Positions 29,617-39,034 of a DNA stretch of 64,000 bases are shown here, one piece after another. A program made the translations under genes and the position numbers. The DNA lies in sequence record NC_054928.1. The stretch is one strand, 5' to 3'. Within the stretch, counting starts at the first letter, position 1. The number at the start of each line of letters is the position of its first letter. The stretch is from Escherichia phage vB_vPM_PD112. The notes below the pieces were generated by a model, which saw only the letters and a list, made by a program, of their open reading frames with translations, was not told where the DNA came from and searched no databases.

Positions 29617-29961
29617 TTAAAAGAATTTAAATTTTTTCTTTGACCTTTTATTAAATGCATCTTGTAGTTGCATTGTAATACATTTTTCTACATGAGGAGC
29701 TAACTCAGCTTTTCTTTCTTGGTCAAGAACAGCAAAGTCCATTACGACTTTTCCATCAACCCAATCTAATTTTGTCACATACACAATGTGTGTAGAACCA
29801 TCTTCTAGTTTAATGACAATCTCCTGGATAACATTTTCCATGGCAGATTTAATTATCTTAAGAGATTCATTAAAAAGACGTTCTTTTCTTTCTTCTTCCC
29901 CCTCCGAAGAGGGGGATTCATCGATAATTTCTAGATCTAAATCTAAATCATCTTTATTCAT
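29617..29961 (-). CDS. 40: acidic protein, about 114 aa, probably gp40
   Basis: Position between uvsX and 41 as on the T4 map; track start is GTG, first ATG used. Confidence 0.45.
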   Translation of the reverse strand: MNKDDLDLDLEIIDESPSSEGEEERKERLFNESLKIIKSAMENVIQEIVIKLEDGSTHIVYVTKLDWVDGKVVMDFAVLDQERKAELAPHVEKCITMQLQDAFNKRSKKKFKFF

Positions 29962-34364: not shown

Positions 34365-37061
34365 TCAGCCAAACAGGAAGTCTAACGAAGCTTTTTCTTC
34401 ATAGTCCATGCCAGCCGATTCACACATACCCGCAAGCGGTTTAACAAACGATTTTTGGAACAAAGTTGAGTGGTCAATCCAAGATAGCACATCAGAACGA
34501 ATTTCTTTTGGAAGTTCTGTACCCGATGGCCAAGCAATGCACTTGTCACCAAATGGATTTCCCTCACGTAATGGAAGAACCATTACCTTATTTCCATCCA
34601 AAATTGGAGCTACACCTAGACCACTAACAGCTCGACGATAAGTTAGCACCCCACGAATATGGAACGGGCATTTAAATCCTGGCCAACCTTTATCATCATA
34701 TTTCGCTATATCATTCGCAGTTTTTACTTCAGCAATAACTTTATAGTCAAGTTGACGATATTCTTTCTCGAAGTTCTTGTAATATTCTTGGACAGACTCT
34801 TCACCTTCCTGAAGAATACGACGAATACTTTCTTCGAGAGCTTCTTGCACTGCTTTTGGTGTTGAACTCTGCTGAGTTTCCATACCCATGATTTTTAGAT
34901 GTGGTTCAGCAAATCGCTTATCTTCCATATCATAAACGTTCAGAGCATAACGTTTTTTCGCTTTCCAAAATCCACCGACACCCTTTGAACCAAGCGGAGG
35001 ACAAGAAATAGCTTCACGGTCCATATGCATCAGATGCTCGCGATTATTCATATAATCACATAACTCACGATATGCAACATCAATCATAGGTTCCATCTTT
35101 TTCTTACCGAACTGATTCATGAATTCAACTAAATCATTTTGTTCTTTAAAGCGGTCAAGACCTACTTTTTCAATAACTTTATCTACACAAACATATACCG
35201 AATCAGTATCACCCGCGGCGATGAAATCTTCATCATTAGTTCCGCATACTTTATTCAGATATTCGTTAATTTTACGAGCAATCCACTGAATACCAACTTG
35301 ACCAAAAATTGTGATAGCAGTAGCATTTCGCAAATCATAGTAACGGAAATGAATGTTACCAAGAGCACCATAAAGACTGTTAATAAGAATTTTACGGTTC
35401 AGCTGATTTGTGTTAGCAAGTGTAGCTGCTTTTTCACATTCTTCAATCAGACTATTGAGAACGGATTCGGTGTAATTCGATAGTTCATTTAAGAAATCAT
35501 CATTGAACTTAACATATCGTTCAACTTCTGGTTTAGTTGAACAAGACCCTGCGCCTTTCATAATAATCTTTTTAATAGCTTCGGCATTCATTTCTTCAGC
35601 GAACATTTTCTTTTTCCAATCTTTACGCTGGAAAAATACTTTAGCGATTTCCTTTGGAATGATACCTTCTTGATGCTTATCATACATCCATCCATTCGGA
35701 GAACAAGAATATTCATCACTCGGTTTAGGAGCTGTTCCTGCAATATATTCATGAATTGGATGAACTTTAAACTGCCCACGAATAGTCTCAGGACTAATGT
35801 TAACCTGACGAATAATGCTAGGATACAGAGACGTCAAGTCAAAACTCATAATATATCGACGAGCAATTGGTTTAGGTTCAAACACAAATGCACCCGGAAA
35901 ACTTTGTTTAACGTGCGAACCCTGTTGAGGAATAACCTTATGTTCACCTTTCAGTGAGTTAAAAATAATAGCGTCCCAAGTTTTAATAGGACTCATTACG
36001 CCAGAAAAAGGCATTTTAGCGTAATAAGACATACTTAAAACTAGATCGATAAACCCACGAATTTTATCAATTGCTTGAACTGATTCTACGTCAATGATGT
36101 TATAACTAATGTATCGTTGATGATTAGTCTCACGAAGTTTATTAATAGGACCATCATACGGTAATTTACCTTTTTTGGTTTCATGCTGAGCAACTGATTC
36201 CAAAGAGAATGACGGCAAATTAGTAAATGCGAATTTCTTATACAAATCTAAATAATCAAGAATAGATACGCCATCAATAGAATAAATTTCTTTGCTACCG
36301 TACACATTTTGAATTAGTTTAGATTTTACCCGACCGATTGGAGAGAAGCGTTTCATACTACGTTCGCCAAGAACCATTTTAACACGATTCATGATATACG
36401 GAACGTCAAATCCCTCAATATTCCAACCAGTAAAAATAGCAGGTCGTTTCTGTTCCCAGAGATTAATATATTCCATGAGCATATCACGCTCATTATCAAA
36501 TGGCATATAAATTACTCGGTCAAGAATTTCTTGAGGAACTTCATCACCACCTTCACAGTCAAGCTTAGCAGCTAACTTTGCATCCCATTTTGATACTGAA
36601 CCGTACATTGAATTCAAAAGGTCGAAAACATAAAAACGGTCATCAATTGAATCGTAATGAGTGATAGCATCAATTTCATATTCTGCTTTCATTGGGTCAG
36701 GAAATTTATCACCAGTAACCTCAATGTCACAGTTAGCTACACGAACAAATTTTCGGTCATAAACAATTTCTGAACCATATGTATCACTGATATAAGCGAG
36801 TTTAAAATCGTTCATACCGAGAGCTTCGAGACCGATGTCTTCCATTCGTTTCATCCAATCTCGTGCATCTTTCATTGATGGAAATTTTTGAGGAGCGCAA
36901 TTTTTACCATAAATGTCTTTGTATTTTGATTCTTCCTTACAGTGTCTAAACATAGTCGGAATATATTCTACTTCACGAGTACGTTCCTTTCCGTTTTCAT
37001 CAATATAACGTTCAACAATGTTATTTCCGACTGTTTCAATAGAGATATAAAATTCTTTCAT
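34365..37061 (-). CDS. 43: DNA polymerase (family B) with 3-prime exonuclease
   Basis: 898 aa, the T4 gp43 length; N-terminus MKEFYISIETVGNNIVERYIDENGKERTREVEY; exo and pol motifs. Confidence 0.98.
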   Translation of the reverse strand: MKEFYISIETVGNNIVERYIDENGKERTREVEYIPTMFRHCKEESKYKDIYGKNCAPQKFPSMKDARDWMKRMEDIGLEALGMNDFKLAYISDTYGSEIVYDRKFVRVANCDIEVTGDKFPDPMKAEYEIDAITHYDSIDDRFYVFDLLNSMYGSVSKWDAKLAAKLDCEGGDEVPQEILDRVIYMPFDNERDMLMEYINLWEQKRPAIFTGWNIEGFDVPYIMNRVKMVLGERSMKRFSPIGRVKSKLIQNVYGSKEIYSIDGVSILDYLDLYKKFAFTNLPSFSLESVAQHETKKGKLPYDGPINKLRETNHQRYISYNIIDVESVQAIDKIRGFIDLVLSMSYYAKMPFSGVMSPIKTWDAIIFNSLKGEHKVIPQQGSHVKQSFPGAFVFEPKPIARRYIMSFDLTSLYPSIIRQVNISPETIRGQFKVHPIHEYIAGTAPKPSDEYSCSPNGWMYDKHQEGIIPKEIAKVFFQRKDWKKKMFAEEMNAEAIKKIIMKGAGSCSTKPEVERYVKFNDDFLNELSNYTESVLNSLIEECEKAATLANTNQLNRKILINSLYGALGNIHFRYYDLRNATAITIFGQVGIQWIARKINEYLNKVCGTNDEDFIAAGDTDSVYVCVDKVIEKVGLDRFKEQNDLVEFMNQFGKKKMEPMIDVAYRELCDYMNNREHLMHMDREAISCPPLGSKGVGGFWKAKKRYALNVYDMEDKRFAEPHLKIMGMETQQSSTPKAVQEALEESIRRILQEGEESVQEYYKNFEKEYRQLDYKVIAEVKTANDIAKYDDKGWPGFKCPFHIRGVLTYRRAVSGLGVAPILDGNKVMVLPLREGNPFGDKCIAWPSGTELPKEIRSDVLSWIDHSTLFQKSFVKPLAGMCESAGMDYEEKASLDFLFG

Positions 37062-37100
37062 AGATATTCCTTAGTTTATAGCCCGAGTTATTAGGCTCTT
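37062..37100 (-). promoter_or_regulatory. gp43 translational operator
   Basis: mRNA GAGCCUAAUAACUCGGGCU hairpin then SD AAGGA and AUG; the loop matches the classic T4 gp43 binding site. Confidence 0.75.
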
Positions 37101-37105
37101 GATAT

Positions 37106-37137
37106 ATTATACTCCAATTAAGGGGCCGAAGCCCCTT
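37106..37137 (-). promoter_or_regulatory. -10 element and UUCG hairpin between regA and 43
   Basis: Minus strand GGGGCUUCGGCCCC (plus 37120-37137) then TATAAT (plus 37106-37111). Confidence 0.5.
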
Positions 37138-37139
37138 GC

Positions 37140-37508
37140 TTAATTACCAATCGTATATTTAGGAACGAGTTTCCATTCATGTTTTTGTTTAAAAGAAATA
37201 ACTCGGAAGTTATTAGTTAAATCTTTCATAAAAGTTCTTTGACCAGGAACGATTTCAATTAGTCCCCAATCTTCTAATAGCCATGCAATCGAATCACGAC
37301 GAACTTCATCTTCTTCTGTCATTTCAACCTGGCGACCATCCATACGAAGCATTTCTTTAAAATGAACGATATAGTATAGTCCTTTTTTCTGGAGAATATG
37401 ACAGGATTGATACAGAACTTTATCTTTATTATTAGCAATTCCCATACGAGTCAGAGTTTCTTTAACTTTCAGAAAATCTTCAGGTTTTTTAAGAGTAATT
37501 TCAATCAT
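37140..37508 (-). CDS. regA: RegA translational repressor
   Basis: 122 aa, the T4 RegA length; N-terminus MIEITLKKPEDFLKVKETL. Confidence 0.9.
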   Translation of the reverse strand: MIEITLKKPEDFLKVKETLTRMGIANNKDKVLYQSCHILQKKGLYYIVHFKEMLRMDGRQVEMTEEDEVRRDSIAWLLEDWGLIEIVPGQRTFMKDLTNNFRVISFKQKHEWKLVPKYTIGN

Positions 37509-37509
37509 T

Positions 37510-38073
37510 TTACCATTCCAATGCTAGTTTTTTGAGTTGTTTCTGTTCTTTTACATTCTTAGTCACTTCTTTCAAAAAATCATCCGTGACTAAACCTTTT
37601 AGTTCTTTTAATACTAAAGGAAGTTTTCCATTTTTAGTAAGAATTGATTTATAGTTAATTGCATCGTTTGTATTAACTTGATACCGCTTAGCAAGTAACT
37701 TAATAATCAATACTTCAGTAGAATCTTCGACCAGTTTTGCCCATTTACCATATCTTTTACCCCGAGGAACAGCAGCCATCAGATAATTAAAATGGGCTTC
37801 ATCGCTTAAACCTGATCCAATTAAATTCATAGCATATACAGCTGGCATGCACTCAGGAAATTGTGATAATGCATTCTCAACCATGTATTTTGAATAATCT
37901 TTTTGAGCAATAGAGCATTTAGTTTTATTATTAATAGCTCCAATTATTTCAAAAAACTCATTTTCAGCTTTTTCCTTAAAAGAATCAGCAGCAGATTGGA
38001 CAGCTGTCCAATCTTTTGAATACCAAGCAACTTGATGCTCGTTTAATTGAATATCATCTTCAAATAAGCTCAT
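37510..38073 (-). CDS. 62: clamp loader small subunit
   Basis: 187 aa, the T4 gp62 length; between regA and 44. Confidence 0.9.
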
Positions 38074-38074
38074 A

Positions 38075-39034
38075 TCACTTCCACTGCATTTCGCATGCCA
38101 ATTGAATGAAAAGATATGCTAAATGTAATTCCGTATTAGCCGCAATTCCATGATACTGGTTATTTTCACCAACAATTTCATACATACGAATAATACTTTG
38201 CGGAGTTACGCGTGTATAAATTTCTTCGGCAAGTTTACCAACGAACCACGAATAATCAGCCGCATATTTTGGTGCTAAAGCTCTGAGTTGTTTAACATCT
38301 TTATTTTTGAGAGACTCAAGAACATCATCAATAGCACCACGATCGTTAGTAACCAGTGATAAAATACCAGCATCCAAAACACCTTTAGATGAATAACTAT
38401 CGAGCTCACCAATAGTTTTACGAAAATCAGGAAAATTCTTTTTAACCAAAGCTGCTACAACTTTCATATCAGCTATAGCAATTCCTTCACGCTTGCAGAT
38501 TTCAGTCAATCGACGAATCATCTGCTTCATCATTTCAATTTTATCTTCATCGGTCGGTTGACCGAATGTGATAACTCGACAGCGTGACTGAAGCGGTTTA
38601 ATAATACCATCAATATTGTTAGCAGTAATAATAATACTACAGTTTGAACTATAAGCTTCCATAAAGGAACGAAGATGTCGCTGAGATTCTGCTAACCCTG
38701 AACGGTCAAATTCATCAATAACGATTACTTTTTGACGACCATCAAATGAAGCGGCGCTGGCAAAATTAGTCAAAGGACCACGAACGAAATCAATTTTACA
38801 ATCTGATCCATTCACAAACATCATATCAGCATTTACATCATGACACAATGCTTTTGCTACAGTTGTTTTACCTGTTCCTGGAGAAGGAGAATGAAGAATA
38901 ATATGTGGAATCTTACCTTTACTTGTAATAGATTTAAAGGTTTCTTTATCAAAGGCGGGAAGAATACATTCATCGATAGTAGATGGACGATATTTCTGTT
39001 CAAGAATGTGTTCTTTTTCATTTACGGTAATCAT
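38075..39034 (-). CDS. 44: clamp loader large subunit (AAA+ ATPase)
   Basis: 319 aa from ATG MITVNEK (track adds a TTG extension); Walker [10 protein letters not shown]. Confidence 0.95.

What the first reader, a model, noticed from the sequence alone, without database searches (positions are those of the whole stretch)
37062..37137. Autoregulatory RNA operator ahead of the DNA polymerase gene
The leader contains the hairpin GAGCC-UAAUAACU-CGGGCU followed by the SD and AUG, matching the site where T4 gp43 binds its own mRNA. Upstream are a TATAAT element and a GGGGCUUCGGCCCC hairpin that ends the regA cistron.
Basis: established knowledge. Interest (0 to 1): 0.4.

Follow-up and report, generated by a model that had tools for sequence, protein, structure and literature searches.

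The report
Known T4 DNA polymerase mRNA operator
This is the well-studied RNA hairpin and ribosome-binding site through which phage T4 DNA polymerase shuts off translation of its own mRNA, present base-for-base in a T4-type phage, so the finding is correct but ordinary.

Summary
The window is a Tequatrovirus (T4-type phage), and the genes here run on the minus strand: 44-62-regA-43.

**Leader layout (regA stop to gene 43 AUG):**
- C(UUCG)G hairpin, 37137-37120
- GGAG, then TATAAT, 37111-37106
- 5-bp stem with 8-nt loop, AGCCU-AAUAACUC-GGGCU, 37097-37080
- SD AAGGA, 37072-37068
- AUG, 37061

**Evidence that this is the gp43 operator:**
- From the transcription start to the AUG it is identical to T4. 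The whole intergenic region differs at one base.
- gp43 is 894/898 identical to T4 gp43.
- The 43-nt operator-to-AUG stretch is identical in 498 of 501 deposited T4-type phages.
- In other genera the stem changes by compensatory substitutions while the loop stays AAUNACUC.
- A covariance model built without any Tequatrovirus sequence finds only this site in the 64 kb (35 bits, E 2e-5).

**Flanking elements:** The TATAAT is the -10 element of the mapped T4 middle promoter P43. The UUCG hairpin follows regA but has no U-run here.

**Corrections and verdict:** The feature is already known and of low interest.

**Side observation:** Serratia phages PS2 and Muldoon carry a -CAAC- loop at the same position, like the SELEX "major variant".

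The parts
37140..37508 (-). regA (translational repressor RegA), 122 aa; stop codon TAA at 37142-37140
   Evidence: ORF list. Pfam PF01818 at E 1.2e-74. 100% identical to T4 RegA by tblastn.
37120..37137 (-). C(UUCG)G tetraloop hairpin AAGGGGC-UUCG-GCCCCUU, 7 bp, 2 nt after the regA stop. On DNA it also carries the best MotA-box-like core (GCTT, 37132-37129).
   Evidence: Folds at -12.1 kcal/mol, with 0 of 200 shuffles as stable. Predicted in the context of the leader. Followed by UUAAUUGG, so it is not called a terminator. The same hairpin is annotated as an ARNOLD terminator in phage OE5505. Hairpins in the equivalent position occur in other genera.
37112..37115 (-). GGAG immediately 5' of the -10 hexamer. 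Candidate RegB cleavage motif on read-through transcripts (inference only).
   Evidence: Sequence. The RegB consensus GG*AGRAYARAA is quoted in PMC3014915, and 5 of the 7 following positions match. GGAG+TATAAT is conserved in most genera.
37106..37111 (-). TATAAT, the -10 element of middle promoter P43
   Evidence: X00769.1 annotates the homologous TATAA as '-10 region (g43)'. P43 is listed as a T4 middle promoter (PMC2988021 Table 1). A 'predicted middle promoter' is annotated over the same bases in phage fPS-65.
37099..37101 (-). Approximate 5' end of the P43 transcript (T4 map position 29933 = 40 nt upstream of the A of AUG = window 37101; canonical spacing from the -10 would give 37099)
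   Evidence: PMC2988021 Table 1, mapped through the gap-free alignment to NC_000866. Not measured for this phage.
37080..37097 (-). Operator hairpin: stem AGCCU 37097-37093, loop AAUAACUC 37092-37085, stem GGGCU 37084-37080 (positions -36 to -19 from the AUG)
   Evidence: Fold. Identical to T4. Covariation across genera. Covariance-model hit at 35.1 bits.
37062..37079 (-). Single-stranded 3' half of the operator, AUAAACUAAGGAAUAUCU, containing the Shine-Dalgarno AAGGA (37072-37068)
   Evidence: Identical to T4. SD annotated in X00769.1. PMC3014915 states that the operator overlaps the ribosome-binding site.
34365..37061 (-). Gene 43, family-B DNA polymerase gp43 (898 aa). It is both the regulated gene and the repressor.
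   Evidence: ORF. Pfam DNA_pol_B and DNA_pol_B_exo1. 894/898 identical to T4 gp43.

Best explanation
The element is the autogenous translational operator of T4-type DNA polymerase. Gene 43 mRNA is made from the MotA-dependent middle promoter P43 (-10 TATAAT at 37111-37106, start near 37101) and by read-through from the upstream 45-44-62-regA transcripts.

The first ~40 nt of the P43 transcript form a 5-bp/8-nt-loop hairpin (AGCCU-AAUAACUC-GGGCU). This is followed by an unstructured A/U-rich stretch that contains the Shine-Dalgarno sequence. When gp43 is in excess over its DNA substrates it binds the hairpin loop plus this 3' stretch. That occludes the ribosome-binding site and blocks translation initiation, so polymerase synthesis is held to the level that replication needs.

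Shown here: the anatomy, identity to the T4 operator, near-identity of the protein, strong purifying selection, and compensatory evolution of the helix with an invariant loop core.

Inferred from published T4 and RB69 work and not testable here: gp43 binding and repression.
For: 1. Position and context. The element lies in the 78-nt regA-43 spacer on the coding strand, directly before the SD and AUG of a family-B polymerase, in T4 gene order.
2. Identity. It matches T4 NC_000866 from -40 to the AUG, with one substitution in the whole spacer that falls outside the operator.
3. Protein. gp43 is 894/898 identical to T4 gp43.
4. Literature. T4 gp43 represses its own translation by binding a hairpin about 40 nt upstream of the AUG plus sequence overlapping the RBS. 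The hairpin is 18 nt in T4 and 16 nt in RB69, with a -UAAC- loop (PMC3014915). These sizes match what I read in the window/T4 and in RB69 (AGAC-AAUAACUC-GUCU).
5. Selection within T4-type phages. The 43-nt operator-to-AUG stretch is 100% identical in 498 of 501 records. Only 1 of 501 is >=99% identical over the surrounding 401 nt.
6. Covariation. In 18 distinct operators from other lineages, 91% of cells pair against 60% in shuffles. Four of 5 pairs change on both sides. Pairing collapses to 23-46% when the register is slid. Loop positions A1 A2 U3 A5 C6 U7 are invariant.
7. No selection bias. Of 35 gp43 leaders containing AAUNACNN, 34 have a flanking stem of at least 4 bp, and the 35th pairs with a 9-nt loop.
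8. Covariance model. A model built only from non-Tequatrovirus operators hits the window once, at 37100-37068(-), with 35.1 bits and E 2.2e-5. The next best hit is 16.2 bits, E 0.57.
9. Promoter. The P43 start site from the literature falls 4 nt 5' of the hairpin.
Against: - No binding or repression assay exists for this phage, so function is transferred from T4 by identity.
- The hairpin is only moderately stable (-5.2 kcal/mol, z -2.1), and the leader as a whole is not more structured than shuffles.
- Rfam 15 has no family that matches, so there is no curated model to test against.
- Invariance within Tequatrovirus could partly reflect promoter or RBS constraints and shared ancestry.
- The shuffle control ignores phylogeny. 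The slid-register control partly compensates for this.
Confidence: 0.94

Rival explanations
1. The hairpin is only a 5'-terminal stabiliser of the P43 transcript. A stem-loop within a few nucleotides of the 5' end would hinder 5'-end-dependent RNase E attack, and the hairpin would not be a protein operator.
For: The hairpin starts about 4 nt from the literature P43 start site. Stem covariation by itself would also be expected for a purely structural element.
Against: A purely structural hairpin would not keep six of eight loop bases invariant across genera. It would not need the conserved 3' single-stranded AUAAACUAAGGA either. Published work shows gp43 binding and repression, and reports a short (~3 min) half-life for gene 43 transcripts (PMC3014915). 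This role is not exclusive of the operator role.
Confidence: 0.03
2. The element is a target of one of the general T4 post-transcriptional regulators encoded nearby, rather than of gp43. That would mean RegA repression at the gene 43 initiation region, or RegB cleavage.
For: regA lies immediately upstream. The leader is A/U-rich around the SD, like RegA sites. A GGAG lies at 37115-37112, and RegB processing is reported to stimulate gp43 synthesis (PMC3014915).
Against: RegA sites are described as unstructured and as overlapping the AUG, whereas this is a conserved hairpin 19-36 nt upstream. The GGAG lies outside the operator and upstream of the P43 start, so it exists only on read-through transcripts. 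The review treats gp43 as a specific autoregulator distinct from RegA and RegB.
Confidence: 0.02
3. The hairpin is a transcriptional attenuator or terminator in the gene 43 leader.
For: It is a stem-loop between a promoter and a coding region.
Against: It has a weak 5-bp stem and no U-run (it is followed by AUAAACUAAGG). The terminator scan finds nothing in 36800-37600.
Confidence: 0.005
4. It is a chance hairpin in an intergenic spacer, conserved only because the phages are close relatives.
For: The stability z-scores are unremarkable. Motif-plus-stem combinations occur at the chance rate elsewhere in the window.
Against: Compensatory changes occur in lineages whose gp43 N-terminus is only 58-82% identical. 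The leave-clade-out covariance model gives a unique hit.
Confidence: 0.005

Closest known systems
Bacteriophage T4 gene 43 autogenous translational operator (Andrake et al. 1988; Tuerk, Eddy, Parma & Gold 1990; Pavlov & Karam 1994; reviewed in PMC3014915)
   Same: Identical sequence from about -40 to the AUG. Same hairpin (5 bp, loop AAUAACUC), same SD, same position after regA and P43. The protein partner is 99.6% identical.
   Different: Nothing within the operator. The one spacer difference (A37118 versus U in T4) lies in the tail of the upstream UUCG hairpin.
RB69 (Mosigvirus) gene 43 operator (Wang, Pavlov & Karam 1997; Petrov & Karam 2002)
   Same: Same loop AAUAACUC, same placement between a UUCG hairpin/GGAGUAUAAU and the SD.
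   Different: RB69 has a 4-bp stem AGAC/GUCU (16-nt hairpin). It has a longer gap between the -10 and the hairpin and a shorter gap between the hairpin and the SD.
SELEX 'major variant' ligand of T4 gp43 (Tuerk & Gold 1990)
   Same: Same stem context and same binding protein. It is a quadruple loop mutant with affinity equal to wild type (PMC6566374) and has a -CAAC- loop core (PMC3014915).
   Different: The window carries the wild-type loop, not the variant. Natural hairpins with AGCAACCU occur in Serratia phages PS2 and Muldoon. I recall the exact SELEX variant sequence (AGCAACCU) from memory and could not check it against the primary paper.
T4 gene 32 autogenous translational operator
   Same: The same regulatory logic: a replication protein that normally binds DNA represses its own mRNA at the initiation region when it is in excess (PMC3014915; PMC12311795).
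   Different: The gene 32 operator is a 5' pseudoknot plus an unstructured tract that gp32 covers cooperatively. The gene 43 operator is a simple hairpin with sequence-specific loop recognition, and no pseudoknot is known.
T4 MotA-dependent middle promoter P43
   Same: The TATAAT is at the homologous position. The literature start site, T4 29933, corresponds to window ~37101.
   Different: The best GCTT MotA-box core sits 15 bp upstream of the -10, not the 12+/-1 bp given as the rule. Relatives such as Karamvirus, Moonvirus and Gelderlandvirus have TGCTAT at 12-13 bp.
C(UUCG)G hairpins of T4 intercistronic regions (Tuerk et al. 1988)
   Same: A G+C-rich stem closed by C(UUCG)G, directly after a stop codon. 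It is one of 13 such hairpins in the window.
   Different: It has no U-run in this phage (UUAAUUGG), so classical intrinsic termination is doubtful.

Membership tests
T4-type gp43 translational operator | Lies on the sense strand in the 5' leader of gene 43 (family-B replicative polymerase), between its promoter and the AUG | tested here: met
   The element is at 37097-37062(-), the AUG is at 37061, and Pfam finds DNA_pol_B and the exonuclease domain.
T4-type gp43 translational operator | Hairpin with a 4-5 bp stem and an 8-nt loop AAUAACUC (-UAAC- core, 3' AC important), giving an 18-nt hairpin in T4 | tested here: met
   AGCCU-AAUAACUC-GGGCU, 18 nt, identical to T4. The feature description is from PMC3014915.
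T4-type gp43 translational operator | Operator extends 3' of the hairpin over the Shine-Dalgarno sequence, so that the bound protein competes with the ribosome | tested here: met
   AUAAACUAAGGAAUAUCU runs from 37079 to 37062 with the SD at 37072-37068. It is identical to T4.
T4-type gp43 translational operator | Helix maintained by compensatory substitutions in related phages, with a conserved loop | tested here: met
   91% of cells paired, 4 of 5 pairs with changes on both sides, and slid registers fall to 23-46%. One search shows no selection bias.
T4-type gp43 translational operator | Recognised by a sequence-and-structure profile of the family built from other members | tested here: met
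   Model R1 was built without Tequatrovirus sequences. It gives a single window hit at 37100-37068(-), 35.1 bits, E 2.2e-5.
T4-type gp43 translational operator | Cognate polymerase that binds the RNA | tested here: inconclusive
   gp43 is 894/898 identical to T4 gp43, so binding is expected. Binding itself cannot be computed.
T4-type gp43 translational operator | gp43-dependent repression of gene 43 translation in vivo or in vitro | not testable with these tools
   Needs EMSA or filter binding, toeprinting, or measurement of gp43 over-production in gene 43 mutants.
T4 MotA-dependent middle promoter (P43) | Excellent sigma70 -10 element TAtaaT | tested here: met
   TATAAT is at 37111-37106. It is annotated as the g43 -10 in X00769.1.
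T4 MotA-dependent middle promoter (P43) | MotA box (a/t)(a/t)(a/t)TGCTTtA centred at -30, 12+/-1 bp upstream of the -10 | tested here: inconclusive
   Only gGCTTCg (37133-37127) resembles the box, and its spacer is 15 bp. The review notes that MotA tolerates deviant boxes. The generic sigma70 scan found no -35/-10 promoter here.
T4 MotA-dependent middle promoter (P43) | Mapped MotA-dependent 5' end | not testable with these tools
   The start is taken from T4 (29933, PMC2988021 Table 1). It has not been measured for this phage.
Rho-independent terminator (for the UUCG hairpin after regA) | G+C-rich hairpin followed by a run of U | tested here: not met
   The hairpin is present (-12.1 kcal/mol), but its tail is UUAAUUGG and the scan returns 0 terminators. 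T4 has UUAUUUGG.
Rfam families | Match to any curated covariance model | tested here: not met
   No match at 37000-37200 even at E<=10. The operator is described in the literature but is not an Rfam family.

The most novel reading that the evidence does not exclude
Nothing novel remains for the window's own element. The most novel reading that the evidence leaves open concerns its family: the natural gp43 operators appear to have explored the same two loop solutions that the first SELEX experiment recovered in vitro.

Serratia phage PS2 carries GUCC-AGCAACCU-GGAC. Muldoonviruses (Muldoon, VP8, SP1) carry GUCCG-AGCAACC-UGGAC. Both sit at the homologous -38/-40 position, with the same UAAACUA...GAGGA 3' flank. 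The loop differs from AAUAACUC at exactly four positions and has the -CAAC- core.

Uzan & Miller (2010) asked explicitly whether such natural operators exist. If these are functional gp43 operators and have not been reported, they answer that question and give a natural test case for RNA-protein co-evolution.
Probability: 0.35. Interest if true: 0.4.

Novelty: already known. Interest (0 to 1): 0.1.

Why it matters
It matters mainly as a positive control. A reader with no tools correctly recognised one of the classic examples of translational autoregulation, the RNA that was the target of the first SELEX experiment. For annotation, the element, the P43 -10 and the UUCG hairpin could be added as regulatory features to T4-type genomes, where the records I examined annotate only a CDS or an RBS over this stretch. 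Rfam lacks a family for it, and the alignment and model made here show that one could be built. The comparative set also shows where the operator stops. It is present in Tequatrovirus, Mosigvirus, Marfavirus, Karamvirus, Gelderlandvirus, Gualtarvirus and allies. It is replaced or absent in Krischvirus, Chrysonvirus, Pseudotevenvirus, Otagovirus and Lazarusvirus.

Tried and rejected
- **Rfam scan** of 36000-38500 at E<=10: only chance snoRNA-like hits, nothing at the leader.
- **Generic promoter/terminator scan:** it called neither the TATAAT (no -35, as expected for a MotA-type promoter) nor the UUCG hairpin (no U-run).
- **Thermodynamic significance of the leader:** not significant (z -1.3 and -0.6), so I dropped stability as an argument.
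- **Primary papers not held:** Petrov & Karam 2002 (PMC137073), Miller et al. 2003 (PMC150520), Gold et al. 2012 (PMC3282410) and Andrake et al. 1988 (PMC282329). Statements about the 36-nt operator and the exact SELEX variant sequence therefore rest on memory plus the reviews.
- **Full-text searches** for AAUAACUC and AGCAACCU returned only unrelated siRNA and primer sequences.
- **Scan of viral contigs** for the T4 stem and flank with any loop: 6 contigs, all with the wild-type loop, so no loop variation among close relatives.
- **Second operator-like site at the start of regA** (UUGA-AAUUACUC-UUAA, 37504-37489): weak A-U/G-U stem, and 5 such sites occur in the window where about 5 are expected. 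The model scores the overlapping region at only 12.6 bits, E 4. Rejected as chance.
- **RB49 region fetch** missed gene 43. I used the Krischvirus Aragogtheria instead.
- **Antisense ORF** 36942-37094(+), 50 aa: a mechanical ORF inside gene 43's 5' end with nothing to support it.

Full report
**What is in the sequence.** All genes around the finding lie on the minus strand.
- ORF 37061..34365 encodes an 898-aa family-B DNA polymerase.
- ORF 37508..37140 is a RegA-family translational repressor (PF01818, E 1e-74).
- Upstream lie the clamp-loader genes 62 and 44.

This is the T4 gene order 44-62-regA-43. A 401-nt query centred on the spacer matches 501 phage records, nearly all from Escherichia, Shigella and Yersinia phages of the T4 type. 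It is 100% identical to phage vB_EcoM_CE1 and 95-99% identical to the rest.

**The leader, read 5'->3' on the minus strand.**

| Element | Coordinates |
|---|---|
| regA stop TAA | 37142-37140 |
| Hairpin AAGGGGC-UUCG-GCCCCUU | 37137-37120 |
| GGAG | 37115-37112 |
| TATAAT | 37111-37106 |
| Hairpin AGCCU-AAUAACUC-GGGCU | 37097-37080 |
| AUAAACU, then SD AAGGA | SD at 37072-37068 |
| AUG | 37061-37059 |

Both hairpins appear in the MFE and centroid folds. The real helix has 5 bp, including a closing U.G, and the loop is the 8-mer AAUAACUC.

**Is it more than chance?** Stability alone does not show it.
- The operator hairpin is -5.2 kcal/mol (z -2.1).
- The leader folds no better than shuffles (z -1.3 and -0.6).
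- Across the window, the loop motif with a stem of at least 4 bp occurs 5 times, about what chance predicts.

The comparative evidence is what counts.

**Comparison with T4 and close relatives.**
- The regA-43 spacer aligns to T4 NC_000866 without gaps and with one substitution, A37118 versus U in T4, in the tail of the UUCG hairpin. Everything from the -10 element to the AUG is identical.
- gp43 is 894/898 identical to T4 gp43, and RegA is 100% identical.
- The 43 nt from the presumed transcript start to the AUG are identical in 498 of 501 phage records. Only one record is >=99% identical over the surrounding 401 nt. The operator is thus more constrained than its flanks, although these records are not independent.
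- A scan of IMG/VR for the T4 stem and 3' flank with any loop returned six contigs, all with AAUAACUC.

**Comparison with other genera.** I collected gene 43 leaders in two ways. One was through RegA tblastn hits in annotated phages. The other used 70 viral contigs found with an alignment of gp43 N-termini. A hairpin with loop AAUNACUC sits 26-41 nt before the AUG in many lineages, but with different stems:

| Lineage | Hairpin |
|---|---|
| RB69/Mosigvirus | AGAC-AAUAACUC-GUCU |
| Contig L048 (170,523 bp, probably JS98-like) | AGAC-AAUCACUC-GUCU |
| Marfavirus | AGAC-AAUUACUC-GUCU |
| Yersinia phage YenM_P8 | AGUC-AAUCACUC-GACU |
| Karamvirus | AGACC-AAUCACUC-GGUCU |
| Gelderlandvirus | GGUCU-AAUCACUC-GGACC |
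| Gualtarvirus MP1 | AUUCU-AAUAACUC-GGAAU |
| Contig L052 | AGUCC-AAUCACUC-GGACU |

On 18 distinct operators anchored on the loop, the pair counts were as follows:
- 91% of cells form standard pairs, against 60 +/- 3% in shuffles (0 of 500 reach the observed value).
- Four of the five pairs show changes on both sides.
- The covariation score is 0.92 against 0.28.
- Sliding the 3' arm by 1-3 columns drops pairing to 23-46%.

Loop positions 1, 2, 3, 5, 6 and 7 are invariant.

My first filter had required a stem, so I repeated the count without it. Of 35 leaders that contain AAUNACNN, 34 have at least 4 flanking pairs, and the 35th pairs with a 9-nt loop.

A covariance model built only from non-Tequatrovirus operators finds one significant site in the 64-kb window. 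That site is 37100-37068(-), 35.1 bits, E 2.2e-5. The runner-up scores 16.2 bits, E 0.57.

More distant T4-like phages have no such hairpin: Krischvirus (RB49-like), Chrysonvirus, Pseudotevenvirus, Otagovirus and Lazarusvirus. This fits the published statement that some T4-related polymerases do not autoregulate (PMC3014915).

**What it is and how it works.** The review by Uzan & Miller (PMC3014915) summarises the experimental work.
- T4 gp43 is an autogenous translational repressor.
- It binds an RNA operator that comprises a hairpin about 40 nt upstream of the AUG and sequence overlapping the ribosome-binding site.
- The hairpin is 18 nt in T4 and 16 nt in RB69, and the loop holds -UAAC-.
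- That loop was the predominant sequence selected in the first SELEX experiment.

The hairpin sizes and loop that I read in the window/T4 and in RB69 match this description exactly.

From my own knowledge (Tuerk et al. 1990, not checked here), the operator was defined as 36 nt, which is precisely 37097-37062. Because both operator and protein are identical or nearly so, the mechanism transfers. Free gp43 binds the loop and the 3' single strand, covers the SD, and blocks initiation, while DNA substrates compete for the protein. Binding and repression are inferred, not shown here.

**The flanking elements.**
- *The TATAAT.* The 1984 T4 record X00769.1 annotates the homologous TATAA as the '-10 region (g43)' and AAGGA as the gene 43 SD. 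Hinton's review lists P43 among the mapped MotA-dependent middle promoters with start site 29933 (PMC2988021 Table 1). That is 40 nt upstream of the A of the gene 43 AUG (29893), which is window 37101 and 4 nt before the hairpin. Canonical spacing from the -10 would give 37099.
- *The MotA box.* The rule (TGCTTtA, 12+/-1 bp from the -10) is not clearly met. The only GCTT core (37132-37129) lies inside the DNA of the UUCG hairpin, with a 15-bp spacer. Several other genera have TGCTAT at 12-13 bp.
- *The UUCG hairpin.* It is very stable (-12.1 kcal/mol, 0 of 200 shuffles) and follows the regA stop by 2 nt. Its tail is UUAAUUGG, so the scan does not call a terminator. The same hairpin is annotated as an ARNOLD terminator in phage OE5505. 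'Ends the regA cistron' is therefore positional. Whether it terminates or only protects 3' ends is open.
- *The GGAG.* The GGAG just 5' of the -10 is conserved in most genera and resembles the RegB site GG*AGRAYARAA at 5 of 7 following positions. RegB processing is reported to stimulate gp43 synthesis. That RegB cuts here is only my inference.

**Rivals.**
- A purely structural 5' stabiliser does not explain the invariant loop or the conserved 3' tail.
- RegA sites are unstructured and overlap the AUG.
- There is no U-run for attenuation.
- Chance is excluded.

**Novelty.** The feature is already known and is a textbook case. Rfam has no family for it, which is a gap in curation rather than in knowledge.

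**Noticed on the way.**
- Serratia phage PS2 (L062; identified) has GUCC-AGCAACCU-GGAC at the operator position. This folds as a 6-bp stem with a CAAC tetraloop, -7.2 kcal/mol.
- Muldoon, VP8 and SP1 have GUCCG-AGCAACC-UGGAC.
- The PS2 loop differs from AAUAACUC at four positions and contains -CAAC-. Those are the documented properties of the SELEX 'major variant': a quadruple mutant with equal affinity (PMC6566374) and a -CAAC- core (PMC3014915). As I remember it, the variant sequence is AGCAACCU itself.
- The 2010 review asked whether such natural operators exist. I found no paper reporting them, but the library is incomplete.
- Erwinia phage Cronus has AGCC-ACAC-GGCU at the same place.

Noticed in passing
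L062:663-678 (Serratia phage PS2, NC_024121); L059, L095 and L096 (Serratia phage Muldoon, Cronobacter phage VP8, Serratia phage SP1), about 38-40 nt upstream of the gene 43 AUG: At the homologous operator position these phages carry GUCC-AGCAACCU-GGAC (PS2) or GUCCG-AGCAACC-UGGAC (the Muldoonviruses). The loop has the -CAAC- core and differs from the T4 loop at four positions, like the SELEX 'major variant' ligand of T4 gp43. The 2010 review PMC3014915 asked whether any natural phage has this loop. I could not check the exact SELEX sequence against the primary paper.
   Followed up: partly
L043 (Erwinia phage Cronus, NC_055743), about 36 nt upstream of the gene 43 AUG: The operator position holds AGCC-ACAC-GGCU. 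This is the T4 stem with a 4-nt loop in place of the 8-nt loop, as if the loop had been deleted. Whether Cronus gp43 still autoregulates is unknown.
   Followed up: no
L002:763-984 and L003:763-984 (phages OE5505, fPS-65); also phages YenM_P8, PG7 and AM101: Many T4-type phages have a small ORF (73 aa, phrog_3826, unknown function) inserted exactly between the regA stop and the UUCG hairpin. The window and T4 lack it. The insertion leaves the hairpin, promoter and operator intact.
   Followed up: partly
window 37118 (minus strand): This is the only difference from T4 in the regA-43 spacer: A here, U in T4. It shortens the U-tract after the UUCG hairpin (UUAAUUGG versus UUAUUUGG). Both alleles occur among relatives. 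It could change read-through from regA into gene 43.
   Followed up: no
window, minus strand: 61041-61022, 47432-47417, 45065-45046, 43795-43776, 39086-39065, 37137-37120, 29916-29897, 23143-23122, 13119-13102, 10589-10566, 6563-6546, 3899-3884; plus strand: 2078-2099: There are thirteen C(UUCG)G-closed hairpins in 64 kb, mostly at gene ends. Several are followed at once by a MotA-box-like GCTTTA (43795-43776, 13119-13102, 45065-45046), which is the T4 pattern of a hairpin followed by a middle promoter.
   Followed up: partly
window 37115-37106 (minus strand) and homologous sites in L011-L084: GGAG directly abuts the -10 hexamer (GGAGUAUAAU) in most genera that have the operator. It is a possible RegB cleavage site on read-through transcripts, or an unrecognised promoter feature.
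   Followed up: no
window 37504-37489 (minus strand), start of regA: There is a weak hairpin UUGA-AAUUACUC-UUAA whose loop resembles the operator loop. The model scores the overlapping region (37508-37455) at only 12.6 bits (E 4), and the number of such sites in the window equals the chance expectation, so it is probably chance.
   Followed up: yes
L010:2700-2715 (X00769.1, T4 record of 1984): The old T4 record reads GCAAGGCTTCGGCCCC where modern T4 and the window read GCAAGGGGCTTCGGCCCC. This looks like a gel-compression error in the 5' arm of the UUCG hairpin.
   Followed up: no
L017:1563-1648 (Escherichia phage Aragogtheria, Krischvirus, RB49-like): The gene 43 leader lacks the AAUNACUC hairpin. 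Instead CUUU-CGUAAGUG-AAGG overlaps the SD. The review says RB49 has a -UAAA- loop operator, which I did not find in this relative.
   Followed up: no
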